Shown: positions 14,221-46,786 of the stretch, in pieces
Numbering within the stretch: the first letter of the stretch is position 1
How the letters are laid out: each line of letters starts with the position of its first letter
Assembly (NCBI GenBank): GCA_045536135.1
Contig: JAZSNA010000003.1
Coordinates: 45,108-109,107 of the forward strand
DNA length: 64,000 bases
Direction: 5' to 3'
Source: Alphaproteobacteria bacterium
Lineage (GTDB): Bacteria; Pseudomonadota; Alphaproteobacteria; CAAHEQ01; UBA3637
The notes under the pieces: model-generated
Told to the model about the DNA's origin: nothing
The model's database searches: none
The model's input: the letters and a program-made list of their open reading frames with translations, nothing else
Translations under genes and position numbers: made by a program

Positions 14221-14288
14221 AGATCCCCTTTCAATTTTGCTAATTAGACGTATTACCAAATTATGTCTGAGAATACAAACAAAATCTT

Positions 14289-14483
14289 TTAATTTGTACA
14301 TAAATCATCGTAAACCACATTGTTTCTATCAATTTGACGGACAGTTTCCGGGGTGTCATGCTCATAATCCGCATACACCGGTTCGTATAAAAGGCAAAAA
14401 TCACCGTTTATATTTGTCGTGCAACCGCTTAACGCGCTCAGGATCAGCCAGGCTATCCCGACTTCTTTTAGCTTTTTGAACAT
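14289..14483 (-). CDS. o-spanin (Rz1-like outer-membrane lipoprotein)
   Basis: 64 aa with a signal peptide and LSGC lipobox. It overlaps the Rz-like gene in another frame. Confidence 0.45.
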   Translation of the reverse strand: MFKKLKEVGIAWLILSALSGCTTNINGDFCLLYEPVYADYEHDTPETVRQIDRNNVVYDDLCTN

Positions 14484-14622
14484 TTTCTAAGGTTCCTTTC
14501 ATTGTTTTGACTTGTTCTTTGTGTTTTCCTTTTTGATAGCCCAGCAGGTATAAAATTGCTAAACCACCGCCGATAATCCAATATTTAGCTTTATTCCAAG
14601 CCGTTGTTATGAGTGTCCACAT
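14401..14622 (-). CDS. i-spanin (Rz-like)
   Basis: 73 aa with an N-terminal transmembrane helix and a charged coiled C-terminus. It lies directly after the holin. Confidence 0.45.
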   Translation of the reverse strand: MWTLITTAWNKAKYWIIGGGLAILYLLGYQKGKHKEQVKTMKGTLENVQKAKRSRDSLADPERVKRLHDKYKR

Positions 14623-14803
14623 TGTTTTTTCCTTTCTTTAACCCAATATCTCGTACTCCGCTTACGCCAAGCACAATACCTAGTCCCATCAGCAGATATT
14701 CCCAATCCACGTTTGGGACACTAAAAAACGGGACAACCACGCAATTGTGGAATATCCCGTAGCATAAAATCCAACCAATCGTTGGTATCCATTTCCGTTT
14801 CAT
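14591..14803 (-). CDS. holin (putative)
   Basis: 70 aa with two hydrophobic helices and a charged C-terminus (KKGKNN). It is positioned between the endolysin and the spanins. Confidence 0.4.
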   Translation of the reverse strand: MKRKWIPTIGWILCYGIFHNCVVVPFFSVPNVDWEYLLMGLGIVLGVSGVRDIGLKKGKNNVDTHNNGLE

Positions 14804-15216
14804 AGAAGTGCAATTCCTTTCTGAATGGTTTCGTTTGAATAAGGCTGTATGCCGTTTTCGTGCCTGATGATCGCCTTGATAAATACAGTCAAAGTGCCGA
14901 TTTCGGTCAAATCAACTTTACCATCCGGTGTGATACCGAGCTGAGCGGCCACACTTTGGATATAGGCTTGTGTTTGGTTTTCACTCGGCGGAGCGTATCG
15001 GCTGATTATCTTTCTTGGCGTATCTAAACCGTATAGTTTTTGGTAATTTAGCAAAAGTCTTGCCAACGCTCTGATACCATAAACGGCCGATATAAATACA
15101 CAAAAGGACGGATCTTGTTCTTTCCCGTCCTGTTTTAATCCTAGCCAATTTTCTCCCCATCTGATGTTTCCAGGGTTATTGTTTCGAATGCCTCTTGGCT
15201 GTCGTGTTTGGTTCAT
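14800..15216 (-). CDS. putative endolysin / peptidoglycan hydrolase (RNNNPGNIR-motif family)
   Basis: 138 aa with a conserved RGIRNNNPGNIRWG segment seen in phage lysis or virion-associated muralytic proteins. It sits immediately upstream of the holin. The assignment is largely positional. Confidence 0.3.
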   Translation of the reverse strand: MNQTRQPRGIRNNNPGNIRWGENWLGLKQDGKEQDPSFCVFISAVYGIRALARLLLNYQKLYGLDTPRKIISRYAPPSENQTQAYIQSVAAQLGITPDGKVDLTEIGTLTVFIKAIIRHENGIQPYSNETIQKGIALL

Positions 15217-15430
15217 GATGTAAACTCCATATCATTTCTCGTAAATCGTCAATTTTAGTTTCCAGTCGGGCGATATGCGTCTGAGTTGCATACTCTTTGG
15301 CCACCGCTACTTTGAATTCGTTTAACTCTCTTTCAACACTTTTGATTTCCCTCCGTTGTTCTCCCAGTTTATAAAAAAACCAACCAAAGGCTGGCACACA
15401 AATGATTTGTAGGAATTGTATCCAATCCAT
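15176..15430 (-). CDS. small membrane protein (holin/antiholin-like or moron)
   Basis: 84 aa with an N-terminal TM helix followed by a coiled coil. It lies between the J-like gene and the endolysin. Confidence 0.25.
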   Translation of the reverse strand: MDWIQFLQIICVPAFGWFFYKLGEQRREIKSVERELNEFKVAVAKEYATQTHIARLETKIDDLREMIWSLHHEPNTTAKRHSKQ

Positions 15431-15439
15431 GTTTTTCTC

Positions 15440-17662
15440 CTATTGATGTACTCGGCTATCTTCAATAACCGCTGTTATTTCTACCTTGGTGGAGCGTGGA
15501 TGTATGCCCGTTACACGTGCAAGTACACTCCATTTATCGGCGGTTCCAAAGGCAAAATGCGTTCGTTCTGCATCTGTGCCGGTTAAGATGTCAATGTCCG
15601 GTTCTTCCGATAAGATAACTTCGGTCGTCAATGCTCCGGGAGTGACGACAAAAGGTCCTGATAAAGACCCGTTTTTCTTTCGTAATGCCAAATAATGTGT
15701 TTGACCTTCTTCAAACTTGACCGGTTCGGACAGGCTTAGTGTCAGACCTTTCTTTTCCGTCACTTCTCCGCCTTGGCCCCATTTAGCCATATCGTGAGTG
15801 ATAGCGATCAGATCTCCATAACTCGGCACCAGTCCTTCCAGTTCTGTTGTGAAGTTGACAATACGTCTGCGGTATCGGTTGGCCAACGCCATATAAGTTG
15901 CTTCTCTTAATGCTTGGTCTTTGTTTGTGCATCCAAATAGCTCAACTGTCGCTGTTTTATCTGAAGATGAACCTTCAAAAGAGCCAACGACTTCGGAGGT
16001 TTTCCAAGTCTTTTCCGAAAAATACTGAACACAAACGCTGTCGGCTGTGTCTTCGGACGGCATCACATATTGTATAGATAGGCTGTTTTTTACAATATTT
16101 CGTGGTCCGAAAAGTGCTACAGGTATGTTTTTCGGCTCGTCCCGGACGAAACGAACAATACCACCTTGAATAAAAGGAATAGCTCGTCCAACTCGGGCTG
16201 TTCGGGATAAGGCTTCATAAACCGTCAGTTTGCTATCAAACACGCCGTTAAAGGTATCGCCTCGGCTGTTCCACGTCTGGTCAAGGTTATAAAGAGCTTG
16301 CAGATCTATGGATTTATCAGCAAGTCCGGCACCGTATGATGCTCTTAAGATATCTGCCAACACCCAAGCCACAGAACGGGTCGCTACCGGCGATGACCAC
16401 CCGGAAGTCGGAGACCAAGTAGGCAGTTTTCTTGTGACGATACAGTTGACCATACGTGACGAACGCTGTGATAAGTTATCGGTGGCACGCATCGTAATGG
16501 CAAGCAATGTCACATTCCCGTAGTCCTTATCCGATACGATGTAGCCTTTGGCTGAACCCCAACGAATTTCATGTCCGGCACGTGAAGATGTGTCTTTGGC
16601 ATCTAACCGGGTAGCTCGGACCTCATATCTGCCGGTTGTTACCGAATAGGTATAGGTTTGATACATAGCGTTATGGTTATTGCTTGTGATACTTTCTGTT
16701 CCAAGGGTTACCCAGTCACCCAGCGCTTTATCTTCATCATCTATTCGTCTGGCATCGATACGCCATTGAATGGTTTTATTGGCCATGGTTCCATTGTCGT
16801 TTGCGTAATAACAGCCTCGTTGAAATGCCACATCAATTTCAATTTTATTGATAACGCTTTCGGTCGGGTTTAACACAAACGGACCACAAATGGTATCCTT
16901 TAACAGTTCCTGACCGGCCACTTCATTGGAAGTTACCACATCTTCTTCAAAAAGCGTGTTTTTACCTCCGGGTGGAATGATTTGATAGGTTATTTCTTCA
17001 AATGAGCTGATCGGCGTGTCCTCAATTCGTATCTGTTCGACATTGTATTCGCCTTGACCTATGCAATGAAGCTGATAGACGTATTGCTCGTTGTTTGCAT
17101 ATTTATAATAAGGCTGACTGGCAAAATCCGGATATATCAGGTGGCGGCCGTAAATAACAGGGATTGGATTACCAAGGCGAGCCTGATTACCTTGCGCTTG
17201 TAAGGAATAAGTCGGACTTTGAGTCAGGCTTGATGTTGTCATTCCATTAAGCGATGCTTTAGGTGTTGGCACAAAGGTATTAATTAAAATTCCGCCACCG
17301 ACAGAAACAGCCGCCGCAGCAACGCCACCCCAAAAGGCACCATAAGCAGCTCCCACAGCACCGCCTGTATAAACAGTAGCAACAATTAAGGCCACCGTTA
17401 GAACAATTTGCAAAGGGTTTGAACTTTTGCCTCCACCACCCTGTGGCAGAGCTACAAAACTAACCACCGCTTTTTGATGTAGAGTAATGTTCCAGTCTTT
17501 TCTGAGTTTTGCCACACCATCAACCAAACAGACTGTTGGTCGGCTTAAATCAATTTTTTGCTCTTTAACGATTTGCCAAACGGTTTGTTTTCCGGGCAAG
17601 GCTTTGCTTATCCGTCCCTTGTTTGGATTAAACGGATTTGTTAGATAATTAAAATAAACCAT
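15440..17662 (-). CDS. tail tip / host-specificity protein (lambda J-like position)
   Basis: 740 aa, the last large tail gene after the K-like gene. It has a Gly/Ala-rich hydrophobic N-terminal segment. Confidence 0.5.
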   Translation of the reverse strand: MVYFNYLTNPFNPNKGRISKALPGKQTVWQIVKEQKIDLSRPTVCLVDGVAKLRKDWNITLHQKAVVSFVALPQGGGGKSSNPLQIVLTVALIVATVYTGGAVGAAYGAFWGGVAAAAVSVGGGILINTFVPTPKASLNGMTTSSLTQSPTYSLQAQGNQARLGNPIPVIYGRHLIYPDFASQPYYKYANNEQYVYQLHCIGQGEYNVEQIRIEDTPISSFEEITYQIIPPGGKNTLFEEDVVTSNEVAGQELLKDTICGPFVLNPTESVINKIEIDVAFQRGCYYANDNGTMANKTIQWRIDARRIDDEDKALGDWVTLGTESITSNNHNAMYQTYTYSVTTGRYEVRATRLDAKDTSSRAGHEIRWGSAKGYIVSDKDYGNVTLLAITMRATDNLSQRSSRMVNCIVTRKLPTWSPTSGWSSPVATRSVAWVLADILRASYGAGLADKSIDLQALYNLDQTWNSRGDTFNGVFDSKLTVYEALSRTARVGRAIPFIQGGIVRFVRDEPKNIPVALFGPRNIVKNSLSIQYVMPSEDTADSVCVQYFSEKTWKTSEVVGSFEGSSSDKTATVELFGCTNKDQALREATYMALANRYRRRIVNFTTELEGLVPSYGDLIAITHDMAKWGQGGEVTEKKGLTLSLSEPVKFEEGQTHYLALRKKNGSLSGPFVVTPGALTTEVILSEEPDIDILTGTDAERTHFAFGTADKWSVLARVTGIHPRSTKVEITAVIEDSRVHQ

Positions 17663-17666
17663 TGTT

Positions 17667-18071
17667 TTAACTTTCTTTCACTCGGTAATAACTGTCAAGG
17701 TACCAACCGCAGGTGTTTAATGAGCGGACATTTTGGAATACAACGCCGCTATCCCGAACACAGTGCAAAACACCACCGCCGTCTATGTCTAACCATAACC
17801 CGGCATGAACGGGATTTTTGGATTGTCTCATCAAAACAACATCTCCGTTGTGAGGTGCCGGCACTTCAATAAAGGCTTGAAATGCCAAATCCACCTTAAA
17901 GGCGTGCAGGACATCTCTTAAATTATTCGGATTAATGTTGACCGGTGGCACATCATGGCCAAACTCGTGCAACAGCACATAACGGACAAAGCCCCAACAA
18001 TCAAAACTGTCAGGGCCTTGTGCTCCGGCGATCCATGGTCGCCCGATATACTTTAATGCAAAATGTGTCAT
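17667..18071 (-). CDS. tail assembly protein with NlpC/P60 peptidase fold (lambda K-like)
   Basis: 134 aa with an FDCWGFV catalytic-Cys motif of NlpC/P60, plus downstream His. Position between the L-like and J-like genes. Confidence 0.5.
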   Translation of the reverse strand: MTHFALKYIGRPWIAGAQGPDSFDCWGFVRYVLLHEFGHDVPPVNINPNNLRDVLHAFKVDLAFQAFIEVPAPHNGDVVLMRQSKNPVHAGLWLDIDGGGVLHCVRDSGVVFQNVRSLNTCGWYLDSYYRVKES

Positions 18072-18610
18072 CTTGATAATCCCGGATACTTTTTAACGGT
18101 GTAGTTTTTTGCAGGAAACGACTTGTTGCCGATGTCCATCATTCGAGCTGTGGCCGATATTTTAGAAATATCCGCTGTAACTTCAGTAATAACCAATGTA
18201 ATCGGCGGATCCATTTGTGGCGTACTTAAATCGTTTGTCAGATATGGGCGATAGGTCATTTCTATCATATCCTGCGTTTCAACAGCTCTATCCAAGTATT
18301 TGATGATTTCTGTTGAAACGTTATCGATGGACAAAGTAATCTCCGGTACCGGTATAGCCTCAACTGGCGGCAATTCCAAATCAAATGCCAACGCCTGAAA
18401 CTCAACTTCATCTCCCGGATTAAGCGGAGCGGTGTCTTCAAGCCTACAGGTATAGTTCTTATTATCCCTGACAATACGAATGGCTGTTGGATTTCCTTTA
18501 TCGTCAACAAAAGCCGGATGCCTTAACTCCAAGGTGTGCAGTAAAACAACTTCACTTGGTGCCGATGCATAAGCCTCTTTAAGAGCTTCTGAGATAGTGT
18601 TATCTGTCAT
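18068..18610 (-). CDS. minor tail protein (lambda L-like)
   Basis: The N-terminus ASAPSEVVLLHTLEL resembles lambda L QSASVVLWEIDL. The start was moved to the ATG at 18610, which has an AGGAGG RBS. Confidence 0.4.
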   Translation of the reverse strand: MTDNTISEALKEAYASAPSEVVLLHTLELRHPAFVDDKGNPTAIRIVRDNKNYTCRLEDTAPLNPGDEVEFQALAFDLELPPVEAIPVPEITLSIDNVSTEIIKYLDRAVETQDMIEMTYRPYLTNDLSTPQMDPPITLVITEVTADISKISATARMMDIGNKSFPAKNYTVKKYPGLSR

Positions 18611-18618
18611 TAAACCTC

Positions 18619-20142
18619 CTAATATCCAACGGCAATCCACGAAATATTACCACGTCGGCGACCTGTTGAATCTGAATCCATATACCTAATTGTAAAAGCT
18701 GTCGTTGACGCACTCATAACTACTGCACAATAGTTTGTATCACTAGTGGCATTTGTCGGTTGTCCAAATGGGGTAATAACCACACTAATGACCGCAGAAG
18801 AAAAGGCTTTTGGAAAAGTAACTGAAAAGTCGGCATCAGAAGTAATGTTTATCCGTCCGCCTTGAGTAATTAAACCTGTTACACTATTCTTTTCCCAAAA
18901 GGATGTTGAGCTTTTAGAATAACTACCTGTTTTATTGTAAAGAGTGCTTGCCGCCACATTTCCTAAATTCAAATCAGCTTTATTTGTAAGTAGATTCCTT
19001 ATCTCTGTTGTATTTTCTTCTGACAATGGTCGGCTGATGTCTGCACATTTGATGTAAACCAGTTCATAATATGATTTAGGTCGGGTTTCATTCCCATAAC
19101 GAGGAGAACCGCAATTACTAATTTCTCCTATTGTTTTTAGTGCATTAAAGTCTGCACTTCCGGAGTGGTTTTCGGAATATGACCATACTGTTGCTGTGTC
19201 AGTTCCTGATTTTTTTGTTCTGTTGAGTGAACCATAGTGATAGTGTCCTTGAAATTGGTCATTTAAAACTGTTCCAAGATTATCTGTTGTACCACTTCGG
19301 GCATAGTTTTTCAAAAGTGGCAGAATAACTGTGTCATTATCAACCTTAACATATGAGGCACACATGCCATAGCTTGAAACTTGGCTGTCATAAGTGCTTT
19401 CAGTCGTAAAAACTAGATAATTCGTATCGACTAATTGTTCAAAAAAGTCCGGATATCTTGCTCGAGTAATCGTGTTTTTATACCATACAGGCTCATAACC
19501 ATCAGGAACTTTTGTATTTGCAGGAACACTTAACTTTGACCCCAATGGAGCCGGAGCACAGCTTTCTGCATAATATTTAGAAAGATTTGCCTGTTCCGTT
19601 GCCAATGCAATTTGTTTTGTTCCTTCCGATTTTACGTTATTAACCTGCGTACTCCCTGAGGAATTAATAGAACTTATTTGGGAAGTAGCTGTTGAGTTTA
19701 TTGTACTAACTTGTGTTGCTCCGTTATTTTTTATCGTAGAAACTTGGGCTGAAGCCTCTGTTTGTATGTTTGAAATGGCTGTGTCCGTAGATGTAGAAAT
19801 GTTGTTAAACACCTCAAGAGCCTGGTTTTTGATACCTAAAACATCCGTTTTTAATTGGGCAGTTTCTGTTTTAATGGTATTTGTCTGTGTTTTTAACTGA
19901 TTTGTAGCGTTTTTTGCCGCAATTGCCTCATCACGAGCCGCTTCTGCCTCAGCCACAACATCCGATACACCTCCAGTTATTTCAGTACGAACATCTTTTA
20001 ATTGTTTAGCAACTGTTGGAATATTTCCTTTTTCAGTTGGCACAGTTGTTTTATCGTCACCATGAATAATTAAATGCCATTTAGATCCGTCCGTTTCAGC
20101 CTGAGAAACAACGGCTTGTAATCTTTCTTCCATATTTGCCAT
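18619..20142 (-). CDS. tail fibre protein (paralog 3, 507 aa)
   Basis: Conserved N-terminus MANMEERLQAVVSQAETDGSKWH... shared with the two upstream paralogs. Central Ser/Thr-rich repeats (STIKNNGATQVSTINSTATSQISSINSSGSTQV). C-terminus ends ...IAVGY. Confidence 0.55.
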   Translation of the reverse strand: MANMEERLQAVVSQAETDGSKWHLIIHGDDKTTVPTEKGNIPTVAKQLKDVRTEITGGVSDVVAEAEAARDEAIAAKNATNQLKTQTNTIKTETAQLKTDVLGIKNQALEVFNNISTSTDTAISNIQTEASAQVSTIKNNGATQVSTINSTATSQISSINSSGSTQVNNVKSEGTKQIALATEQANLSKYYAESCAPAPLGSKLSVPANTKVPDGYEPVWYKNTITRARYPDFFEQLVDTNYLVFTTESTYDSQVSSYGMCASYVKVDNDTVILPLLKNYARSGTTDNLGTVLNDQFQGHYHYGSLNRTKKSGTDTATVWSYSENHSGSADFNALKTIGEISNCGSPRYGNETRPKSYYELVYIKCADISRPLSEENTTEIRNLLTNKADLNLGNVAASTLYNKTGSYSKSSTSFWEKNSVTGLITQGGRINITSDADFSVTFPKAFSSAVISVVITPFGQPTNATSDTNYCAVVMSASTTAFTIRYMDSDSTGRRRGNISWIAVGY

Positions 20143-20144
20143 TA

Positions 20145-20945
20145 TTAACTTCCTTTACAAGGGATAAATGTTAATTCTCCTGCCGTCAGCTTAACAACAT
20201 CACCTACATCAACTAAAAAAGATAAGCTATTGTATTCTTCCCAGTTTCCATAAGAACCATATTGTCTGAATACTGTAACGCCATTTATATAGCCAGTGAT
20301 GTTACTGTTGTAGACTGTGTTACGCATGAGTACCCAACCAATCTGTGAAATTGTTACGTCTGTATTCAAGGAAAGTATGGTTTTTTTTGACCAGTTTGGG
20401 CATAGCCAACGCATTAGTTGAATGATTGATGTTTTAGAAATGTTTGATAGTGATATATCTAATTTACTGCTTGTCGCATTTTCTGCTCGTTCTGCCTGTG
20501 CAGTTGCTTCGGCCACTTCTTCTATAGCAGCTGATTTTACGTTTGCAATCTGTGTTGTGCCTTCTATTTGAATATTGGAAATCCCTTGAGAAACGGCAGT
20601 TGATACGGAGTTGAACGTTGTCTGAGCCATGTTTTTGTAGTTTTCGGCCGTATTTCTAAATTCCTGTGTATCTGATTTTAACTGTTCTATTTCGGATTTG
20701 ATAACAAGAGCGTTATCTAGAACGGCACTTGTTTCGTTTTTTGCCTGCAAACAAGAGCCTAAATAATCAGCCGCACCATTAATCAACTCATTTCGCACAT
20801 CATTTAGCTGTTTTGATACAGACGGAATCTTGCCATTTTCAGTTGATACAGTTGTGGTATTATTTCCATGTATTATCGTATGCCAAAGCGAACCGTCTGT
20901 TTCAGCCTGAAACACAACGGCTTGAAGTCTTTCTTCCATATTCAT
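20145..20945 (-). CDS. tail fibre protein (paralog 2)
   Basis: Start trimmed to the internal MNMEERLQAVVFQAETDGSLWH (the track ORF extends upstream into the previous gene). The N-terminal ~150 aa are near-identical to paralog 1, and the C-terminus diverges. Confidence 0.5.
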   Translation of the reverse strand: MNMEERLQAVVFQAETDGSLWHTIIHGNNTTTVSTENGKIPSVSKQLNDVRNELINGAADYLGSCLQAKNETSAVLDNALVIKSEIEQLKSDTQEFRNTAENYKNMAQTTFNSVSTAVSQGISNIQIEGTTQIANVKSAAIEEVAEATAQAERAENATSSKLDISLSNISKTSIIQLMRWLCPNWSKKTILSLNTDVTISQIGWVLMRNTVYNSNITGYINGVTVFRQYGSYGNWEEYNSLSFLVDVGDVVKLTAGELTFIPCKGS

Positions 20946-20956
20946 CTTATAAATCC

Positions 20957-21793: not shown

Positions 21794-21794
21794 G

Positions 21795-22277
21795 TTATAA
21801 ATCCTCTATTTGTTTTGTACAGGTCTCATGGACGTATTCGTGTAAGCGGTTAACTGCCAACACCAATTTATCGTAATCGCAGTCTAATAAAATGTTTAAT
21901 GCACCTTCAGACAAGGTCGGACGGTCTCGGATTTCCAGTTCAGAGGTTATTTCCCACAAATAGCCGTTTAGGAGTTTTGCCTCGAACTGTTGAGTAAAGC
22001 GAGCCTCTTGTTCCAGTAGTCCTAAACCACCAAGCAATGTGATGTAAAACCATTCGGCTCCTTCCTTTGCGTGGTATTTATACCATGCCTCGAAAAGAGA
22101 AAATTGCTCTCGGTTCATCACCCACCGCACCGAAATTTTAGACGGCGTTTGAGTATAACGCCGCCTTTGTCTTGCTGGACCTGATTCCATGTCGGTTCGC
22201 ACAATGGCTTCTCCGGGCTTAATTGCATATCCTTCCGTTGTCGGATAAGGCAGATGTTGAGGAAAATATACTGTCAT
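21795..22277 (-). CDS. minor tail protein (lambda M-like)
   Basis: EQFSLFEAWYKYHAKEGAEWFYITL resembles lambda M EATVLESFLEEHGGWKSFLWT. It lies immediately downstream of the tape measure gene. Confidence 0.4.
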   Translation of the reverse strand: MTVYFPQHLPYPTTEGYAIKPGEAIVRTDMESGPARQRRRYTQTPSKISVRWVMNREQFSLFEAWYKYHAKEGAEWFYITLLGGLGLLEQEARFTQQFEAKLLNGYLWEITSELEIRDRPTLSEGALNILLDCDYDKLVLAVNRLHEYVHETCTKQIEDL

Positions 22278-38708: not shown

Positions 38709-38718
38709 GGTAACCTCC

Positions 38719-40372: not shown

Positions 40373-40385
40373 AAAAAATACAAAG

Positions 40386-40421
40386 TGACCAGCCAGATTT
40401 TGAAATGACCAGCCAGAAAAA
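40386..40421. repeat. direct repeat TGACCAGCCAGA x2 immediately upstream of the ParB-MTase start (operator-like)
   Basis: The 12-mer occurs at 40386-40397 and 40410-40421, with a degenerate third copy gtgaccagtaaag at about 40468. Confidence 0.45.
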
Positions 40422-40573
40422 ACAAGACACCCTCAAACCCCAGTAAATACAATGGTTTCCGAGTATGGGTGACCAGTAAAGAAAAAGGTGTTTCGCTAGA
40501 AAAATCGGGCGGCTTGCGTCCCCGCATACGAACAGAGCCCAGGAAGGACCCGTTGCCCCGGAGCTGTCCAAGA

Positions 40574-40945
40574 TAGTATCTCGTTAGTATGATACTAACC
40601 ACCCAAACGGGCCAAAACCCGAGAGAGTATGTTGACAGTATGATACTATCCGTCAAATCCGGCTCAAAACCTCGATACCGTCTTGATAGTATGATACTAT
40701 CTGCCTATTGTGACGGGACGGTCGGGCTATGGTTTATCATAGCGAACATATATGCAAATCTATGCGAATATATGTCCGATATATGTGCAATATAGGGCGA
40801 TATTCCGTCAGAATAGCCCATATATATGTCTTATATGTGAGGCAACACCGACATATAATGTTATATGTTCGCATAGTATGATAATATCCGGCAATTCTGC
40901 CCAAAAGTTGGGATTATATGTCGTTAGTATGATATGTTCCGGCAA
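40574..40945. repeat. iteron array: five copies of near-palindromic TAGTATGATACTA, plus ATATGT-rich repeats
   Basis: Copies at 40584-40600, 40636-40650, 40685-40701, 40872-40894 and 40924-40945. An identical 14-mer tcgttagtatgata occurs at 40581 and 40921. Interspersed are atatgt/catatat repeats at 40741-40870. Confidence 0.6.
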
Positions 40946-40955
40946 ATTCGGGGGA

Positions 40956-41957
40956 TTATACCAAACCATTTCGGCATAAACGGGCGAAAACTGGCTTTGT
41001 TAAGTCCAATTCTTCAGCCAGTTCAATCGGGGTTTTGGCCACCGAGATGGCGGTATTTGTCTCGACACCTGACTTGATGGTCTTCACAACTGCACTTGGC
41101 AGTTCGGCTCGGCCAATACAGGAGGAGAGATAGACAAAGCACTCGTCGTTATCTTCCAAATAACGAAGAGCTAAACGGCGAGCATAGATGTTCAGTGTTA
41201 CATCTGCCTTGCTGCCGTCTTTAGTCCAAGGCGAGCCACCACCGATCGGACAGGCAGTAGAGTAAAAATCGCAGGCCAATTTGCGACCGGTAATGCCGCA
41301 GTCTGCGATGGAGGAATGCAATTTGAAACTTCCGGTGCCGTTAACTATGATGTTGTCAGGCTTTTCTCCGAGTGTTTCAATGATAAAATCTGTTAAATCT
41401 TCCGGTTCTTTCATCGGAATGGCAACGACAGCCGTTTCAATTCGGCCGTAGTCGTTTAAGGTTATCTGTGTTTTAATGTCAATGCCAAGGTTTTTGCTTT
41501 GACGAGCCTTAATATAAAGGGCATTGTTAAGGGTACGAGCGAGATAAAGCTCTCGGTTTATCAGGCCTTCACCTTTACAGGCGTAACCGACAAATACACC
41601 TTGGTCGCCCCAACCATTGGCTACTACGCCTTGGTTGATGTCTGCTGACTGCTGACCGATGAGGTTGATGACTTCGATTTTTCGAACATCTATGGCATTT
41701 TGTCCCCACATTTCGGCATATTTTTCATCATAACCGATATCTCTCAGGGCATTTTTAACGAACTCTTTGACATCTGACAGGACAACTTTTCCTTTGATTT
41801 CGCCTCCTAAAACGACGGTGTTGTCTTTGACCATAACCTCAACGGCATATTTGACGTCCGGGTCTTGGGCGATCATGCGGTCAAGGATATAACTGGAAAT
41901 ATAGTCGGCCGTTTTGTCCGGATGTCCGAGCGAAACGAACTCTGCTGTTTTTTTCAT
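40956..41957 (-). CDS. metK: S-adenosylmethionine synthetase (MetK) homolog, compact 333-aa phage-encoded form
   Basis: Aligns by eye along its whole length to E. coli MetK: GHPDKTADYIS..ILD......DP, GGEI, QSADINQGV, GWGDQGVFVGYA, DCGITGRKL, and a GGG loop. Confidence 0.65.
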   Translation of the reverse strand: MKKTAEFVSLGHPDKTADYISSYILDRMIAQDPDVKYAVEVMVKDNTVVLGGEIKGKVVLSDVKEFVKNALRDIGYDEKYAEMWGQNAIDVRKIEVINLIGQQSADINQGVVANGWGDQGVFVGYACKGEGLINRELYLARTLNNALYIKARQSKNLGIDIKTQITLNDYGRIETAVVAIPMKEPEDLTDFIIETLGEKPDNIIVNGTGSFKLHSSIADCGITGRKLACDFYSTACPIGGGSPWTKDGSKADVTLNIYARRLALRYLEDNDECFVYLSSCIGRAELPSAVVKTIKSGVETNTAISVAKTPIELAEELDLTKPVFARLCRNGLV

Positions 41958-42074: not shown

Positions 42075-42503
42075 TTATAGCGATTTCTTTTGAAAGTGTC
42101 CACTCATTTTTTGCACTCTGCATTTTTCCTTTCCTTTTAGGTAAAACTCAATCTTTACAATGGCTTTATCATACTTGAGCATTAACCTTGTTCTGCAAAG
42201 GCCAAATTCTCGGCATAAAATTTTCCAAGGAATTCGGTTGGCCCGTTTCCAAACAAGGCGGCGTTCATCAATCTCTAAAAGTGGTATCCATTCTAAAGTG
42301 ACAGTCTCCCATAAACTGACCTGTGCCTGAGTTGGACGAGGCCGAACCGGTCGGCGGTCCATCAGGGCCATTTCTTGCGGCGTGTATATAATCTCGGGCA
42401 TCAAACACCGATATCTGGAAGAACGGACAGGCGGCAACAACCGATCCACATAGGCGGCCGTTTCCAAGTTTGCTTTGATTTCTGCGATGGTCTTAGGTTT
42501 CAT
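42075..42503 (-). CDS. hypothetical protein with putative HTH
   Basis: 142 aa. IPWKILCREFGLCRTRLMLKY resembles an HTH segment. Confidence 0.3.
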   Translation of the reverse strand: MKPKTIAEIKANLETAAYVDRLLPPVRSSRYRCLMPEIIYTPQEMALMDRRPVRPRPTQAQVSLWETVTLEWIPLLEIDERRLVWKRANRIPWKILCREFGLCRTRLMLKYDKAIVKIEFYLKGKEKCRVQKMSGHFQKKSL

Positions 42504-43161
42504 CCGGCACCACCTTTACTTTGCTAAGCACATCATGACAGATGTCCGACATGGTCTCCATCTCTGAGTAGACAAGACCGTTTTCCTTGCAAAACCATTT
42601 CCGGACGGCTTTACGCCAGTCAACGGCAATGTATTTCTTGCCGTTCATCCAACCACGTTCTTCGTTCCACCGAACGAAGGCAACTGGGTCAATTGTATAT
42701 CCACTTCGTTTGCAGTATTCAGCCACTTCTTCAATGCTTGGAGCACCGACATATCCGGACTTATCCACATTTTCCGTCTCTTTATTTTTATTATTTTTAA
42801 TAAAAACATTTTCAGACTCTTCTCCTTTATCCTTCTCCTTATCAGGTTTTTCGTTGGCGGAATTTGGAGGTGGTTCTGAAACCTTAAGGTTTTCTTTTTC
42901 CTTTTTCGGACGACCACCTTTAGAGCCGCCAGCCTTACGTTTTTCGCAGGTTTCAAAATATTTGCGATTGTTTTCATCAATGCCTGCTTGCAAAAAATTA
43001 AAACGGTCTTGAACTTTTTCCGATAAATTTTTTGTAATTTTTCCGTACAGAGCGTATTCACAAAGAGCCTTAATTAAATTCGCACATTCACAATTTGTGA
43101 AATTATACACAGAAGCAAGGAACTCCGCCGGATAAAACACGAATGACGTTTTTCTATCCAT
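42493..43161 (-). CDS. hypothetical protein (possible replication/regulatory function)
   Basis: 222 aa with a low-complexity K/E-rich linker between two globular halves. No firm motif. Confidence 0.25.
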   Translation of the reverse strand: MDRKTSFVFYPAEFLASVYNFTNCECANLIKALCEYALYGKITKNLSEKVQDRFNFLQAGIDENNRKYFETCEKRKAGGSKGGRPKKEKENLKVSEPPPNSANEKPDKEKDKGEESENVFIKNNKNKETENVDKSGYVGAPSIEEVAEYCKRSGYTIDPVAFVRWNEERGWMNGKKYIAVDWRKAVRKWFCKENGLVYSEMETMSDICHDVLSKVKVVPDET

Positions 43162-43399
43162 TTTTAGGTCCTTTCATCGTATCCATTGTTTTGATACGAA
43201 TAATCCCTTGCACCCAACGTAGGGCAAGAACAGCTCGTTGGTAGTCTTTTGTCTTTTCTTTATGCTTCAAGGAATAGTAAATAACTTCGTCCTTTAAGCG
43301 GCTTTCAAACTCTCTCAACTGTTTGAAAGACAGAGATACCATCGCATCTGCAGGAATTTCTTTAATAACTTCAAAAACTGTATCTTTTGGTTTGATCAT
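43154..43399 (-). CDS. hypothetical protein
   Basis: 81 aa with an AAGGAG RBS. A conserved hairpin and a 40-bp repeat lie upstream. Confidence 0.3.
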   Translation of the reverse strand: MIKPKDTVFEVIKEIPADAMVSLSFKQLREFESRLKDEVIYYSLKHKEKTKDYQRAVLALRWVQGIIRIKTMDTMKGPKNG

Positions 43400-43477
43400 T
43401 TTTTCTCCTTTTGTTAATGTTGATACAAAAGGTAAATTCCCGATAAAGTCGAAATGTGCCGAAAAAAAATAATTTTT

Positions 43478-43987
43478 TTATTTTTTTATCTTTCCTCGTT
43501 TTATTCGTTCATCAATATCTTTCAAAACAGTATGTGAAATTCTTAGCTTATTCCTAGCATTTCTAACGGTTTCTCCATTTAAAATAAGGTCTACAAATTG
43601 ATTTTGTTTGTCTGATAAAAATTTTCTTTTTTCTTCAAATTCGATTTTATTTTCAATGTCTGCCAGCGAAAACGTATCTTCAAGTTCAAAACCTTCCTTT
43701 TCAAACATACTATTTAATGACTCTTTATTAAAAAAACCCGACTGCTTTTCTCGCAATCGGGTTCGTCCTAGGTGCATGGCTTTAGATTTAATCGCCATAA
43801 AAAGTGTATCATTTGGAATTTCAGGACCTCGCTTTCTAATAAACTCCAAATAAAATAAAACTAGATCCTGAACGATGTCTTCACGTTCTTGATAATCAAA
43901 AAGTCCTGTTGAGTAAATATAATGCAGATGTATTTTAATATAGGTCACCACATTTTGGGGCAAACCTTTGAATAAATATTGAGCCAT
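43478..43987 (-). CDS. sigma-70 family (ECF-like) sigma factor, phage-encoded
   Basis: A region-2-like segment DIVQDLVLFYLEF and a C-terminal region-4-like HTH (LSDKQNQFVDLILNGETVRNARNKLRISHTVLK). Confidence 0.4.
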   Translation of the reverse strand: MAQYLFKGLPQNVVTYIKIHLHYIYSTGLFDYQEREDIVQDLVLFYLEFIRKRGPEIPNDTLFMAIKSKAMHLGRTRLREKQSGFFNKESLNSMFEKEGFELEDTFSLADIENKIEFEEKRKFLSDKQNQFVDLILNGETVRNARNKLRISHTVLKDIDERIKRGKIKK

Positions 43988-44143
43988 TTTGAAACCTTTT
44001 GTTAATGATTAATACAAAAGGCCATATATTCATAAGTCGTGGTTTGTTCAATAAATCGTTGAAAGAAACGAAAAAAAATATACCTATGTGTATATGAAGG
44101 ACATACATAGGTATAATTAGACTTTAGTTTTGGATTTTTGGAC

Positions 44144-45850
44144 TCATTTAAATCCAAGTTCACGACGTTGTTCTGCCCAAGAATATGGGAAACGCTCTCT
44201 TAATAATCTTCTTAATGTGAGTAGTTTAGGCTGACGACCTTCTAAAATAGCCATAATAATATCGGGTGCAAGGGTTGTAAGACGAATGATTTGACCAAGA
44301 TAACTATGATTGCATCGTTCGTGTTTAGATAACTCTGCCAACGACCATTTTCTTGTTTCCATTTTCTCTTTTAAATAAAATGCTTGAGTTACTGCATTAA
44401 ATAGTTTTTCATCTCGAGCAGGAAGTTCTTTTGTTGGATTTGTTGGCTCTACAATTTTAACACTTCCCCGTTTACGTCCAAAAGTTACTTCATATTTTAG
44501 AATTAGGCTTTTTTTACAGTAATTAGGATTTTCTCCTATTAGTTGATTTTCATAAATCTGAGCCCCATAAGGTTTTAACTTTATTTCTATATAATCTTTA
44601 TGCAAAATAACTTTTTCTAAAATTTCTGCGATAAAATCATGAACGGTTGCCGGTTCAAAATACTGAAAAACTTCTCCAATATCATTGACTAAATCAAAAG
44701 CTGTACTGGCAGTGTAGTTCGGATTGACTTCTTCTAATTGACGAGCCAGTTCTTTTATTATTTCTGGTGACTTAAATATCTGCTGTATTTTACCGATAAC
44801 AAATGTATCTAGCTCTCCAGCTGGAACACTTCCTATTTTACACGGTTTATATTTAACGCCTTCTTTTACACCTTTTAGAGCAGAATAGTATTCGTAATAT
44901 TTATTGCCATGTTTACTGCGTGTGGGAATCATTGTACCACAACACTCACATTCAAGCAGACCTTTTAATAGGCTATGCTTTATAGAACGAGACGGTCTAA
45001 AGGCATTCTTCAAATTATCGTGCTTTAAATTTATTGTTCGATCCCATAATTCTTGAGTAATAATAGCTTCGTGCTGTCCTTCATACAATTCACCTTTATA
45101 AGGCATTTTTCCAAGATAAATAGGATTGTTTAAAATGTTATTTATCATCGAGTGATTAAACTCATCATTATTCTTTAATGTTCCATCCTTATTTCGTCGT
45201 TCTTTAGGTTTATAACCTCGATTGTTTACATTATGCGTTGTAGCCGCTTCCGACCTTGTACGGATATAATCTTCAAATATAAATCGAATTATTTCAGCTT
45301 CAGAAGGCTCGATAATCAGTTTCTTGTTTTTAAGGGTATATCCCAAAGGGACAGAACCTCCAGTCCACATTCCTTTTTTTCGACTTGCGGCGATTTTATC
45401 ACGTACACGTTCTGCACCCAGTTCTCTTTCAAATTGAGCAAAGGATAATAAAATATTTAGAGTCAACTTACCCATGGAATCGCAAGTATTAAAATGTTGT
45501 GTGACAGATACAAATGAACAGTTATGCTTTTCAAAAGTTTTAACAAGTTGTGCAAAATCAAGAAGTGAACGGGTAAGTCGGTCTATTTTATAAACAACAA
45601 TCATATCTACTTTTCCAGCCTCAACATCTTCAATAAGTCGTTTTAAAGCAGGGCGTTTTAAACTGCCACCACTAAAACCACCATCGTCATAATGTTCTGG
45701 GATTGTTATCCAACCTTGGTGTTTCAGACTTTTAACATAGTTCTCACCGGCTTCTCGTTGAGCTTCTAAGGTATTAAATTCTTTTTCAAGTCCTTCATCT
45801 GTTGACTTTCTTGTGTAAATTGCACATCGTATCTGTTTTTGTGTTTCCAT
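44144..45850 (-). CDS. large serine recombinase (phage integrase)
   Basis: N-terminal resolvase domain with catalytic Ser (CAIYTRKSTDEG...) and GKVDMIVVYKIDRLTRS, followed by a long recombinase domain with a Cys-x2-Cys zinc ribbon. Start set at METQKQ, which has an AAGGAG RBS. Confidence 0.85.
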   Translation of the reverse strand: METQKQIRCAIYTRKSTDEGLEKEFNTLEAQREAGENYVKSLKHQGWITIPEHYDDGGFSGGSLKRPALKRLIEDVEAGKVDMIVVYKIDRLTRSLLDFAQLVKTFEKHNCSFVSVTQHFNTCDSMGKLTLNILLSFAQFERELGAERVRDKIAASRKKGMWTGGSVPLGYTLKNKKLIIEPSEAEIIRFIFEDYIRTRSEAATTHNVNNRGYKPKERRNKDGTLKNNDEFNHSMINNILNNPIYLGKMPYKGELYEGQHEAIITQELWDRTINLKHDNLKNAFRPSRSIKHSLLKGLLECECCGTMIPTRSKHGNKYYEYYSALKGVKEGVKYKPCKIGSVPAGELDTFVIGKIQQIFKSPEIIKELARQLEEVNPNYTASTAFDLVNDIGEVFQYFEPATVHDFIAEILEKVILHKDYIEIKLKPYGAQIYENQLIGENPNYCKKSLILKYEVTFGRKRGSVKIVEPTNPTKELPARDEKLFNAVTQAFYLKEKMETRKWSLAELSKHERCNHSYLGQIIRLTTLAPDIIMAILEGRQPKLLTLRRLLRERFPYSWAEQRRELGFK

Positions 45851-45851
45851 T

Positions 45852-46262
45852 TTATTCTCCTTGTTTATCAATACCAAAAAAATATCTGCCAGATATTTTT
45901 CTACCGGTTATTTTTTTTGCAATTGCTGATAGGCTTGGGTACTTCATCCCATTGTATTCAAAGCCATCATTTAGAATAATGACCGAATGTTCAACCTGTT
46001 GGTATTCACGAATAATTCGTGTACCGGTTGGCGGAAGGTTCTTTCTTCCATCCGGAGGGACATACATCTGTGCAATAAGTTTTTGTTGTGCCTTTGGTAA
46101 ACCTCCGTAAGCAAGCTCTTGTATTCGATAAGCTATTCGGGAAACAAAAAACTCTTTATTTTGAGAGATCGTTGGTTCTGTAAAATATTCTTTCCACATT
46201 TCTTGTAGCTCTGGTAAAGATTTATTCTTTAATAAAGCTATTTCAACTACGACCGATTTCAT
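45852..46262 (-). CDS. DUF2924-like protein (conserved partner gene upstream of large serine recombinases)
   Basis: 136 aa. YPSLSAIAKKITGRKISGRYFFG matches my recollection of the DUF2924 hallmark. It abuts the recombinase start. Confidence 0.4.
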   Translation of the reverse strand: MKSVVVEIALLKNKSLPELQEMWKEYFTEPTISQNKEFFVSRIAYRIQELAYGGLPKAQQKLIAQMYVPPDGRKNLPPTGTRIIREYQQVEHSVIILNDGFEYNGMKYPSLSAIAKKITGRKISGRYFFGIDKQGE

Positions 46263-46420
46263 TGTGTACCTCCATTATTTTCGTTTTCGTGATCACAATG
46301 AATGCTTGGATTTTTTATTTTATCCAGTCTTTTCTGAATAATTTCACCACTTTCTTGCATTTCCAAATATCTTAGGATATCGGGCATAATTATTTTAATT
46401 AATTTTTCTACTTGGGTCAT
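46259..46420 (-). CDS. hypothetical small protein
   Basis: Internal Met start (MTQVEKLIK...) about 53 aa. A 40-bp repeat lies 20 bp upstream. Confidence 0.25.
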   Translation of the reverse strand: MTQVEKLIKIIMPDILRYLEMQESGEIIQKRLDKIKNPSIHCDHENENNGGTQ

Positions 46421-46786
46421 TTTTGACCTCCTTTCGAAATGGTAAATTCCCAGAGAAGTCAAAATGTGCCGAAAAAAATTAAAAAAATCTCGTTGTCGGT
46501 ATATCGTATTGAAAAACAACAAAAAAATATTTATAAGGCTAGTTGTCAGTGAATAAAAACAAACCTCTCTTGAGTGGATGGGAAAATTGGACATCATATA
46601 ATTTTATGGAAATTTATAAAAATCAATGTGTTTTTGACCAAGTTGCCAAAAGAAAATGACCACTTGCTCAAGGTATACTTTTACGGCAAAGGTATATGTA
46701 TAAGTTGATTTGATAGCAGAAGACAGCTTGATTTATGAAAATGTGAGAGGAGAGGATGTTGGCTGTTATTGGGCTTTCGCAGGGTA

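What the first reader, a model, noticed from the sequence alone, without database searches (positions are those of the whole stretch)
14230..46600. Compact lambda-syntenic prophage that uses a large serine recombinase plus DUF2924 partner, integrated between an island and tRNA-Pro
Head and tail genes follow the lambda order almost gene for gene, and sizes match (E 342 vs 341 aa, D 112 vs 110, H 872 vs 853). The integration module, however, is a Gram-positive-style large serine recombinase with its typical small upstream partner. The lysis cassette is at the distal end of the late operon rather than before Nu1. GC is clearly higher than the host flanks, indicating recent acquisition. The element is only about 32 kb. 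No recognisable CI/Cro or O/P replication genes were found in the early region, which is instead filled with a sigma factor, MTase, MetK and defence genes.
Basis: partly seen in the sequence, partly recalled or inferred. Interest (0 to 1): 0.5.

Follow-up and report, generated by a model that had tools for sequence, protein, structure and literature searches.

The report
Gut-bacterium prophage inserted behind tRNA-Pro
This is a real, apparently intact 32.6-kb lambda-like prophage of an uncultured gut alphaproteobacterium, and its large serine integrase inserts it a few bases after the end of a tRNA-Pro gene, a target type that is rare for serine integrases but turns out to be the rule for this whole phage family.

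Summary
Window ~14241-46828 is one 32.6-kb prophage, with all but one gene on the minus strand. The head module is homologous to lambda (Nu1-A-W-B-C-D-E). The tail is a siphovirus tail in lambda-like order, and lysis genes sit at the far end.

The DUF2924 gene and the large serine recombinase (LSR) belong to the phage. The order DUF2924-LSR-sigma-like-DUF6291-DUF6362-MetK-ParB/MTase-TerS-TerL recurs in more than 60 metagenomic or MAG loci, almost all labelled as gut or rumen Alphaproteobacteria. So "Gram-positive-style" is misleading; Wolbachia WO phages also place a recombinase gene directly after a DUF2924 gene.

The new point is the integration site. The same integration module (98.5-99.9% nt) follows different tRNA-Pro genes in hosts whose rplM genes are only 75-83% identical. 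The tRNAs vary along their whole length. Invariant phage DNA, a terminator hairpin, starts 3-5 nt after CCA. In 39 of 69 related loci a same-strand tRNA sits in this position (about 0.6 expected), and the isotype tracks the recombinase clade.

No empty attB or attP was recovered, and no recognised repressor or replication gene was found. Only a lone antisense DUF3489 HTH gene is a regulator candidate. GmrSD is a recent insertion. I rate this a new variant of a known kind, of moderate interest.

The parts
46833..46909 (-). Host tRNA-Pro(TGG). Its 3' end forms the host half of the right-hand attachment junction.
   Evidence: ARAGORN and Rfam. The tRNA sequence differs between hosts along its whole length, with compensating acceptor-stem changes, so it is host DNA.
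46828..46833 (-). Right junction. The hexamer AATTAG (minus strand) is shared with the left junction, and the crossover is inferred to lie inside it, probably at AG (46829-46828).
   Evidence: Invariant phage DNA starts 3-5 nt after ...CCGACCA in 14 lysogens. The shared 11-mer was found.
46795..46816 (-). Phage-borne hairpin flanked by an A-tract and a T-tract (an intrinsic terminator). After integration it sits directly behind the tRNA.
   Evidence: Terminator scan. Fold energy is -15.3 kcal/mol, z = -5.2. The equivalent phage hairpin follows tRNA-Pro, Glu, fMet and Lys genes in relatives.
46259..46420 (-). Conserved 53-aa small ORF, the first gene of the integration operon.
   Evidence: Called as a gene in L086-L092. 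Conserved in relatives. No family match.
45852..46262 (-). DUF2924 protein (136 aa), a predicted DNA-binding partner. Its stop codon lies 1 nt before the recombinase start codon.
44144..45850 (-). Large serine recombinase (568 aa), the integrase.
   Evidence: Pfam Resolvase, Recombinase and Zn_ribbon_recom. PDB matches to TP901-1 integrase (E=3e-24), a 500-aa integrase entry (9iu2) and the 'Resolvase homolog YokA' recombinase entries (9dxh, 9dxd). The invariant YTRKS motif is seen in alignment A5.
42075..43987 (-). Early genes: sigma-like 169 aa (43478-43987), orf81 (43154-43399), DUF6291 protein (42493-43161), DUF6362 protein (42075-42503).
40956..41957 (-). Short S-adenosylmethionine synthetase homologue (333 aa).
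   Evidence: Pfam S-AdoMet_synt N, M and C domains; phrog_1569.
40373..40955 (.). 583-bp non-coding gap. It holds five copies of the palindrome TAGTATCATACTA (spacings 51, 51, 187 and 51 nt), an AT-rich CATATAT stretch, and two GGCTGGTCA repeats before the methylase gene. It is a candidate origin or operator region.
   Evidence: The palindromes are conserved in L086 but absent from L001 and L105.
39104..40372 (-). ParB-N domain fused to an N6/N4 DNA methyltransferase.
   Evidence: Pfam, phrog_498, PADLOC MTase_II.
37220..39024 (-). Five small conserved early ORFs of 101, 98 (DUF6891), 164, 124 and 92 aa.
   Evidence: Conserved in relatives.
35055..37127 (-). GmrSD-type (DUF262/DUF1524) type IV restriction-like gene, a recently inserted cargo gene.
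   Evidence: Pfam GmrSD_N/C. PADLOC Orf5/HEC-06/mREase_IV. GC 0.30. Absent from L002, L086 and L087, which are 92-96% identical on both sides.
34627..35019 (+). DUF3489 HTH-like protein, the only conserved antisense gene. It is a candidate lysogeny or late-gene regulator.
   Evidence: Pfam DUF3489, E=3e-18, plus weak HTH hits. The same gene is in the same place and orientation in L086 and L087.
28035..34563 (-). Lambda-type packaging and head module: TerS 34048-34563, TerL 32163-34106, W-like 31933-32172, portal 30425-31933, S49 protease/scaffold 29404-30516, decoration D 29066-29404, major capsid E 28035-29063.
   Evidence: GpA_ATPase and GpA_nuclease are recorded on the L086 homologue.
15440..28025 (-). 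Connector and siphovirus tail module: head-tail connectors and tail terminator 26537-28025; tube 25582-26523; G/GT chaperone 24858-25582 with slippery A AAA AAC near 25169; tape measure 22274-24892; phrog_384 protein 21795-22277; three paralogous fibre genes 18619-21793; DUF1833 18068-18640; NlpC/P60 17667-18071; J-like tip protein 15440-17662.
14289..15430 (-). Lysis cassette: 84-aa membrane protein, endolysin 14800-15216, 70-aa two-TM holin-like protein, 73-aa i-spanin-like protein, 64-aa lipoprotein o-spanin-like protein.
   Evidence: phrog_873 endolysin. Small ORFs read. The functions of the small proteins are inferred from sequence features only.
14240..14245 (-). Left junction: AATTAG (minus strand), between the phage arm ...GGTAATACGTCT and host DNA CAAAATTGAAAGGGG (the end of the S51 peptidase gene region).
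   Evidence: The host gene ends at 14220 and the last phage ORF at 14289. The junction is identical in conspecific lysogens L184-L186.

Best explanation
Window ~14241-46828 is a complete, probably functional temperate siphovirus prophage of an uncultured gut alphaproteobacterium. It belongs to a large, undescribed family whose members share one genome plan: small ORF, DUF2924, LSR, early genes (sigma-like, DUF6291, DUF6362, MetK-like, ParB-methylase), lambda-type terminase and head, siphovirus tail, then lysis.

Integration is carried out by the LSR. Its chromosomal site consists of the last ~20 bp of a tRNA-Pro gene plus a few bases downstream. Strand exchange occurs within the 6 nt that start at the final A of CCA. 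The tRNA therefore stays intact without any duplicated tRNA segment, and the phage places its own terminator hairpin behind it.

Shown: the gene content, the synteny, the position of the host/phage boundary, and the family-wide association with tRNA genes. Inferred: the exact crossover dinucleotide (AG), the role of DUF2924 as a DNA-binding cofactor of the integrase, cos-type packaging, and which genes control lysogeny and replication. For lysogeny control the candidates are DUF3489 and the sigma-like protein. For replication the candidates are the DUF6291 and DUF6362 proteins and the palindrome array.
For: - Gene annotation. The G/GT slippery site is in the right place. No interrupted structural ORFs were seen.
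- The LSR belongs to the phage. The same gene order is found in L001, L002, L009, L011-L021 and in most of L104-L183.
- Boundary at the tRNA. Five host contexts (L086, L087, L088/89, L090 and the window) lose similarity to each other exactly at the tRNA 5' end. The tRNA bodies differ, with compensating acceptor-stem changes and even different anticodons (TGG, CGG, GGG). The sequence from 3-5 nt after CCA onward is invariant phage DNA.
- Recent mobility. Integration modules are 98.5-99.9% identical in hosts whose rplM genes are 75-83% identical.
- Family trait. In 39 of 69 loci a same-strand tRNA ends 470-800 nt upstream of DUF2924, against about 0.6 expected. The counts are Met 16, Pro 12, Glu 6, Lys 3, Ala 1, Val 1, and all recombinases at least 65% identical to the window's that have a tRNA sit at tRNA-Pro.
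- The same phage hairpin follows tRNA-Glu and tRNA-fMet genes in different clades.
- The two junctions share only AATTAG, and no long direct repeat spans the element's two ends. This is what a serine integrase would leave.
Against: - No empty attB and no attP (excised or virion form) was recovered. The crossover point and the activity of the phage are therefore inferred.
- The left junction is pinned only to 14221-14288 by ORFs, plus the shared hexamer.
- No recognised repressor, Cro, replication initiator or recombination directionality factor was found.
- Thirty of the 69 loci with at least 800 nt of upstream sequence lack a tRNA within 1 kb. These include L106-L111, whose recombinases are 68-82% identical to the window's and whose flanks carry only tRNA-Pro-like fragments. 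tRNA targeting is therefore not universal in the family.
- The integration module has been exchanged between otherwise 95%-identical phages (L002).
Confidence: 0.8

Rival explanations
1. It is a defective or domesticated prophage (a gene-transfer-agent-like or cryptic element) that can no longer replicate or excise. The structural genes are kept, but the phage is not active.
For: No recognisable repressor, Cro, replication or excision-factor genes. No attP or virion-type contig was found. All conspecific contigs recovered are occupied at the same site.
Against: All head, tail and lysis ORFs are intact, and the G/GT frameshift site is preserved. Nearly identical integration modules occur in hosts 75-83% identical in rplM. 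Active mosaicism is visible: fibre cassettes and integration modules have been swapped, and GmrSD has been gained. The early genes are conserved across dozens of relatives, which argues for function.
Confidence: 0.12
2. The DUF2924-recombinase-sigma-like block (43162-46828) is a separate small integrative element lying beside an integrase-less prophage.
For: Its GC is 0.335 against 0.435 for the rest. In L002 this block is only 57% aa / 70% nt identical while the rest is 95%.
Against: The block is always found in the same place and orientation, directly followed by the same early genes, in more than 60 loci. There is no second integrase and no internal junction. The phage-derived terminator and junction lie outside it, at the tRNA. 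A 46-nt element upstream of its operon is repeated upstream of the next early operon.
Confidence: 0.04
3. The tRNA-Pro gene is carried by the phage as cargo at the genome end, and integration happens elsewhere.
For: Similarity between lysogens extends through the tRNA and stops at its 5' end.
Against: The tRNA differs between lysogens at many positions, with paired acceptor-stem changes and three different anticodons. The adjacent phage DNA is 96-99% identical across the same loci. The same phage hairpin sits behind different tRNA isotypes.
Confidence: 0.02

Closest known systems
Bacteriophage lambda (head and packaging module, tail gene order)
   Same: The order TerS-TerL(GpA)-W-portal-S49 protease-D-E has Pfam or PHROG matches to the lambda families. 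A G/GT frameshift site, the tape measure, an NlpC/P60 K-like protein and a J-like tip protein follow in lambda order.
   Different: There is no CI/Cro/N/O/P region and no tyrosine integrase or Xis. The lysis genes lie after J rather than before Nu1. The tail tube is Phage_tube_2, a DUF1833 protein sits in the L position, and three fibre genes lie between the M-like and L-like genes. Nearly all genes are on one strand.
Wolbachia phage WO / proposed Symbioviridae
   Same: Both have alphaproteobacterial hosts, an LSR as integrase, a DUF2924 gene directly upstream of the recombinase (PMC10299305), and a lambda-like head. WO TerL is among the best phage-database hits, at about 52% aa.
   Different: There is no nucleotide similarity to any deposited phage. 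No baseplate, PAAR or contractile-tail genes and no eukaryotic association module are present; this is a siphovirus-type tail. The WO genomics paper never mentions tRNA (PMC9203015).
Characterised phage large serine integrases (TP901-1, Bxb1, phiC31, SPbeta SprA)
   Same: The domain set is the same (Resolvase, Recombinase, zinc ribbon), with significant sequence matches to solved structures. The junctions share only a few bases.
   Different: These integrases are generally described as targeting sites inside protein-coding genes (my own knowledge). The largest LSR survey scored only protein-coding target genes and never mentions tRNA (PMC10083194). This enzyme has an extra ~100-aa C-terminal region (phrog_14161) and a fixed DUF2924 partner.
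Serine recombinases known to use tRNA genes: filamentous phage phiRSM1 (tRNA-Ser) and Mycobacterium AICEs (tRNA-Leu)
   Same: In both cases a serine recombinase uses the 3' end of a tRNA gene. The literature calls this rare (PMC3218068; PMC3816273).
   Different: The phiRSM enzyme is a small resolvase/invertase-type protein, and its attP carries a 13-nt copy of the tRNA end. Here a 568-aa LSR leaves only ~6 shared nt and no tRNA duplication. The trait spans a whole tailed-phage family and at least six tRNA isotypes.

Membership tests
Large serine recombinase (phage serine integrase) | N-terminal resolvase-type catalytic domain with the nucleophilic serine | tested here: met
   Pfam Resolvase, E=1.3e-36. 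TP901-1 catalytic domain, E=3e-24. YTRKS is invariant in 8 family members.
Large serine recombinase (phage serine integrase) | C-terminal Recombinase domain plus zinc-ribbon domain | tested here: met
   PF07508, E=6.7e-17, and PF13408, E=2.2e-6 at 28.4 bits against a cutoff of 25.3.
Large serine recombinase (phage serine integrase) | Short attachment sites with a tiny common core and no long flanking direct repeats | tested here: met
   The two junctions share only the hexamer AATTAG within an 11-nt near-match. No long repeat spanning the element's two ends was listed.
Large serine recombinase (phage serine integrase) | Separate recombination directionality factor for excision | tested here: inconclusive
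   No known RDF family was matched. DUF2924 is a candidate accessory protein but is co-transcribed with the integrase.
Lambda-like siphovirus (structural module) | Lambda-type head genes: GpA terminase, portal B, protease C, D, E | tested here: met
   D is marginal (HDPD 29.9 bits against a cutoff of 29.1).
Lambda-like siphovirus (structural module) | Lambda-type tail proteins V, M and L | tested here: not met
   The tube protein is Phage_tube_2. The L position holds a DUF1833 protein and the M position holds phrog_384. H, K and J equivalents are present.
Lambdoid regulatory and replication plan | CI/Cro switch, O/P replication genes, tyrosine Int/Xis | tested here: not met
   No such family was found in any ORF of 34563-46600.
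Symbioviridae (phage WO-like) | LSR together with baseplate/PAAR and contractile-tail modules, and nucleotide homology to WO | tested here: not met
   The LSR is present, but the tail genes are siphovirus-type. There is no nucleotide match to any deposited phage. The defining traits are taken from PMC9203015.
tRNA-end-targeting integrative elements | Host/element boundary at the 3' end of a tRNA gene, reproducible across independent hosts | tested here: met
tRNA-end-targeting integrative elements | Element carries a copy of the tRNA 3' segment that restores the gene (the classical tyrosine-integrase mode) | tested here: not met
   There is no tRNA fragment at the left end. The tRNA 3' strand co-varies with the host 5' strand.

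The most novel reading that the evidence does not exclude
This LSR clade may have evolved a swappable reading head for the ends of tRNA genes. At least six isotypes are used while the phage-side arm stays nearly constant. The always-coupled DUF2924 protein has a SAP-like helical part and a RAMA-like sheet, and RAMA domains are associated with adenine methylation. It could be the cofactor that either recognises the tRNA-gene arm or senses the methylation state set by the phage's own ParB-methylase/SAM-synthetase pair, and so sets the direction of recombination. Either role would be a new control principle for serine integrases, and the clade would be a natural set of related integrases with different, highly conserved landing sites.
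Probability: 0.15. Interest if true: 0.75.

Novelty: new variant of a known kind. Interest (0 to 1): 0.45.

Why it matters
Prophages with serine integrases are well known, so the element as first described is ordinary. Three things add value.

(1) It is a well-bounded reference example of a widespread phage family of uncultured gut and rumen Alphaproteobacteria. The family has no close counterpart in deposited phage genomes.

(2) Integration a few bases behind tRNA genes, with no duplicated tRNA segment and with a phage-supplied terminator, is described as rare for serine recombinases. The largest LSR survey did not consider it. Here it is a family-wide rule, and tRNA specificity tracks the recombinase clade. 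That makes the evolution of serine-integrase target choice directly testable, and it could supply related integrases with distinct, conserved landing sites.

(3) The early region lacks every textbook regulator and replication gene, so the family is a place to look for alternative lysogeny and replication control.

Tried and rejected
- Genome-collection scan with the PHP protein to the right of the tRNA: no relatives.
- Exact look-ups of PHP, S51, o-spanin and i-spanin: not on record.
- A second viral-contig scan with a two-sequence J alignment returned only the three loci already known, because the patterns chosen were poor.
- Pattern search for the predicted attP in viral contigs, and for the phage-side left arm in metagenome contigs: no hits. 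Neither attP nor an empty attB could be shown.
- Contigs with an identical endolysin (L094-L100) have a different lysis-end sequence. They could not be used to pin the window's left arm.
- Conspecific contigs found through the S51 homologue (L184-L186) are all lysogens with the identical junction, so they add no resolution.
- NCBIfam on ten early proteins: nothing.
- PDB sequence search for the sigma-like protein and for the DUF6291 and DUF2924 profiles: nothing significant.
- Rfam: only the two tRNAs.
- I looked for dyad symmetry in the inferred attB (CCCC-N4-AATT on both arms). It is suggestive by eye, but it places the centre 1-2 nt away from the AG inferred from the junction comparison, so I do not rely on it.
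- The idea that L106-L111 contain an intact attP was rejected, because their upstream DNA is host sequence with tRNA-Pro fragments and no lysis genes.

Full report
**What is in the window.**
- Between the end of a host peptidase S51 gene (13429-14220, plus strand) and a tRNA-Pro(TGG) gene (46833-46909, minus strand) lies a block in which every substantial ORF but one is on the minus strand.
- Read in the direction of transcription, the block starts next to the tRNA.
- The order is: a 53-aa ORF; a DUF2924 protein (45852-46262); a 568-aa large serine recombinase (44144-45850; Resolvase, Recombinase and Zn_ribbon_recom domains); a weakly sigma-like protein; an 81-aa ORF; a DUF6291 protein; a DUF6362 protein; a short SAM-synthetase homologue.
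- Then comes a 583-bp non-coding gap, a ParB-N/DNA-methyltransferase fusion, five small ORFs, and a GmrSD-type gene.
- Next is the lambda-type packaging and head set. It comprises TerS, GpA-type TerL, a W-position ORF, the portal, an S49 protease, the decoration protein D and the major capsid protein E.
- After that come connectors, a tail tube protein, a G/GT chaperone pair, an 872-aa tape measure, a phrog_384 protein, three paralogous fibre genes, a DUF1833 protein, an NlpC/P60 protein and a J-like tip protein.
- The block ends with a lysis cassette: an 84-aa membrane protein, an endolysin, a holin-like protein and two spanin-like proteins.
- A slippery A AAA AAC heptamer lies in the overlap of the two chaperone frames, and no structural gene is interrupted.
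One caveat applies: only the head module and parts of the tail (H, K, J) are homologous to lambda. The rest of the tail is lambda-like in order only.

**Does the recombinase belong to the phage?**
- The integration block has host-like GC (0.335 against 0.435 for the structural genes).
- One relative (L002) is 95-96% identical to the window from the DUF6291 gene to TerL, yet only 57% identical in the recombinase.
- Synteny settles the question. In IMG/VR contigs (L001, L002, L009, L011-L021) and in most of the 80 genome loci found with a recombinase alignment (L104-L183), DUF2924 and the recombinase are followed in the same orientation by the same early genes and then by TerS/TerL.
- The block is thus a conserved, if exchangeable, module of one phage family.
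- The GmrSD gene is different. It is absent from L002, L086 and L087, which match the window closely (92-96%) on both sides of it, and it has a GC of 0.30. It is a recent cargo insertion.

**Host.**
- The window's housekeeping genes (pheST, rpsF, rplI) looked alphaproteobacterial to me by eye.
- Nearly all genome records that carry relatives of the recombinase are MAGs labelled Alphaproteobacteria, Rhodospirillales, 'Azospirillum' or Rickettsiales. They come from human, rabbit, deer, sheep and cattle gut or rumen.
- A few records labelled Lactobacillales, Holdemanella or Bacteroidaceae are probably binning errors.
- Contigs of the same species as the window, carrying the same island from pheS to the S51 gene at about 90% nt, come from human gut samples, including Hadza samples.
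- 'Gram-positive-style' is therefore not apt. A recombinase gene directly after a DUF2924 gene has also been noted in Wolbachia phage WO (PMC10299305), and WO TerL is among the best hits in the deposited-phage collection at about 52% aa. No deposited phage matches at the nucleotide level.

**The integration site.**
- The exact DUF2924 protein occurs on at least 21 public contigs.
- Four independent host contexts besides the window's own (L086, L087, L088/89, L090) lose similarity to the window exactly at the 5' end of a tRNA-Pro gene.
- In the alignment the tRNAs differ at many positions along their whole length. These include paired changes in the acceptor stem (CGGGGTG...CACCCCG, CGGGGCG...CGCCCCG, CGGAATG...CATTCCG), and the anticodon is GGG in L090. 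The tRNA is therefore host DNA.
- From 3-5 nt after ...CCGACCA onward, all copies carry the same sequence, AAAAAATAAATGCGGATACTATTAAGTGTCCGCTTTTTTT.
- That sequence is a strong hairpin flanked by an A-tract and a T-tract. The phage thus supplies a new terminator for the tRNA.
- The host rplM genes of three of these contigs are only 75-83% identical to each other. Their integration modules are 98.5-99.9% identical to each other and to the window's. This is evidence for recent movement between well-separated hosts.
- At the other end, the junction must lie in the 68 bp between the S51 stop codon and the last lysis ORF.
- The only sequence this stretch shares with the right junction is AATTAG[A/C]AAAA. 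This places the exchange inside AATTAG (46833-46828 and 14245-14240).
- Lysogens with an identical phage arm differ in the three bases before AG (ATT, TTA, TTT). AG is therefore the most likely crossover dinucleotide, but this step is inference.
- A 6-nt common core, with no tRNA fragment at the far end, fits a serine integrase. It does not fit the classical tyrosine-integrase mode, in which the element carries a copy of the tRNA 3' segment.

**A family-wide rule.**
- Among the 69 genome loci with at least 800 nt upstream of DUF2924, 39 have a same-strand tRNA ending 470-800 nt upstream. The window's distance is 571 nt, identical to L104.
- From the density of the remaining tRNAs in the same loci, about 0.6 would be expected.
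- The isotypes are Met 16 (both initiator and CAT-anticodon elongator-type genes), Pro 12, Glu 6, Lys 3, Ala 1 and Val 1.
- Among loci that have a tRNA, all recombinases at least 65% identical to the window's sit at tRNA-Pro. More distant clades sit at other isotypes.
- The layout repeats across isotypes: CCA, then 4-6 variable bases, then a phage A-tract/hairpin/T-tract. The very same hairpin, AAAAGAGGAAGTTTATACTTCCTCTTTTTTT, follows tRNA-Glu genes in one clade and tRNA-fMet genes in another.
- Exceptions exist. L106-L111 (68-82% identical recombinases) have no tRNA. They are flanked by host DNA containing tRNA-Pro 3' fragments such as TGGTCGGATTGAC, and L106 holds two family prophages head to head. 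A few distant members have a tRNA downstream of the recombinase instead.

**Comparison with what is known.**
[quoted passage not shown] It cites the small resolvase-type enzyme of filamentous phage phiRSM1 (tRNA-Ser) and reports a group of Mycobacterium AICEs (tRNA-Leu) (PMC3218068; PMC3816273).
- The largest LSR survey defined targets as disrupted protein-coding genes and never mentions tRNA (PMC10083194).
- The WO phage genomics paper does not mention tRNA either (PMC9203015).
- I found no description of this phage family. That is absence of evidence within the searchable library, not proof of novelty.
- On the membership tests, the recombinase is a bona fide LSR. The phage is lambda-like in its head but not in regulation, replication or several tail proteins. 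It is not a WO-like (Symbioviridae) phage, because it lacks baseplate, PAAR and contractile-tail genes and shows no nucleotide match to deposited phages.

**How it most likely works, and what remains open.**
- The integration mechanism is the best-supported part.
- DUF2924 is always immediately upstream of the recombinase; in the window its stop codon is 1 nt from the recombinase start codon. It has thousands of homologues.
- The AF2 model (pLDDT 79) shows a helical N-terminal part and a small sheet.
- I therefore read DUF2924 as a DNA-binding cofactor of the integrase. Whether it aids site choice or directionality is unknown.
- Lysogeny control and replication are unresolved. No CI/Cro, antirepressor, O/P, primase, helicase or known directionality factor was detected.
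- Candidate regulators and replication functions are these:
  - the only antisense gene, a DUF3489 HTH-like protein just upstream of TerS, conserved in relatives;
  - the sigma-like protein, on weak evidence only;
  - the DUF6291 protein, one homologue of which carries a DnaD-like domain, although its structure search was uninformative;
  - a non-coding region with five TAGTATCATACTA palindromes (spacings of 51, 51, 187 and 51 nt) around an AT-rich stretch. This region is not conserved in more distant relatives.

**Verdict.**
- The most interesting feature was missed. The tRNA-Pro gene is the integrase's target, and this is the rule for a large, undescribed phage family of gut Alphaproteobacteria.
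- Novelty: new variant of a known kind. Interest: moderate (0.45).

Noticed in passing
window 48178-58430: A second, ~10-kb phage-like cluster lies on the other side of tRNA-Pro and the PHP gene. It has a large terminase (48765-50213), two tail proteins matching PHROG 'tail protein'/'tail tubular protein' families (50797-53393), a major head protein (53339-54178), a putative scaffold, a portal/adaptor (55240-56658) and an opposite-strand CI/LexA-like repressor (57744-58430). The gene set looks podovirus-like to me. No integrase was seen, so it may be a remnant or a small satellite-like element.
   Followed up: partly
window 40373-40955: A non-coding gap holds five copies of the palindrome TAGTATCATACTA (spacings 51, 51, 187 and 51 nt) flanking an AT-rich CATATAT-repeat stretch, plus two GGCTGGTCA repeats just before the ParB-methylase gene. 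The palindromes are conserved in the 95%-identical relative L086 but absent from L001 and L105. The region could be an origin, a ParB-type binding array or operators.
   Followed up: partly
window 43427-43472 and 46437-46482; also 38336-38377, 39087-39128, 46303-46344: A 46-nt element (85% identical copies) sits just upstream of both the integration operon and the next early operon. It may be a shared promoter or operator. A separate 42-nt repeat occurs three times.
   Followed up: no
window 18619-21793: Three consecutive fibre genes share a ~150-aa N-terminal module (MNMEERLQAVV...) with different C-terminal parts. In the conspecific strain L184 this cassette is replaced by different genes and the tape measure is only ~71% identical, although the prophage sits at the same site.
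   Followed up: partly
window 4677-14220: A low-GC (0.316) block lies next to tRNA-Phe. It encodes two radical-SAM proteins, an HD protein, a glycosyltransferase-9-like protein, a hydrolase and the S51 peptidase. It looks like an island, but it is conserved in order in conspecific contigs L184 and L185. No integrase was seen.
   Followed up: partly
L106 8100-9600; L107 8770-9130: L106 holds two family prophages head to head, with their DUF2924 ends about 0.9 kb apart. L107's flank contains several fragments of tRNA-Pro: a 3' half on the minus strand and two GAGGTCGCTGGTTCG pieces. These look like scars of repeated integration events.
   Followed up: partly
L100 1288-1839, L101 1025-1576: In some close relatives an ankyrin-repeat gene (183 aa) is inserted between the J-like gene and the lysis cassette. 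L087's host flank also encodes Fic and MORN-repeat proteins.
   Followed up: no
L104, L150, L155 (MAG CASEYR01): One MAG carries three different recombinases of this family on three contigs (100%, 44% and 46% identical to the window's). The first sits at tRNA-Pro and the second at tRNA-Ala. This suggests polylysogeny by family members with different tRNA targets.
   Followed up: no
L105, L112, L141, L147, L149, L154, L158, L170: Records labelled Lactobacillales, Holdemanella, Bacteroidaceae, Selenomonadaceae, Lactobacillus johnsonii, Clostridia or Ruminococcus gnavus carry this otherwise alphaproteobacterial module. Contig mis-binning seems the likely cause.
   Followed up: no
window 1344-3419: The host PheT homologue is only 691 aa, whereas the PheT on the related contig L087 is 786 aa.
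   Followed up: no
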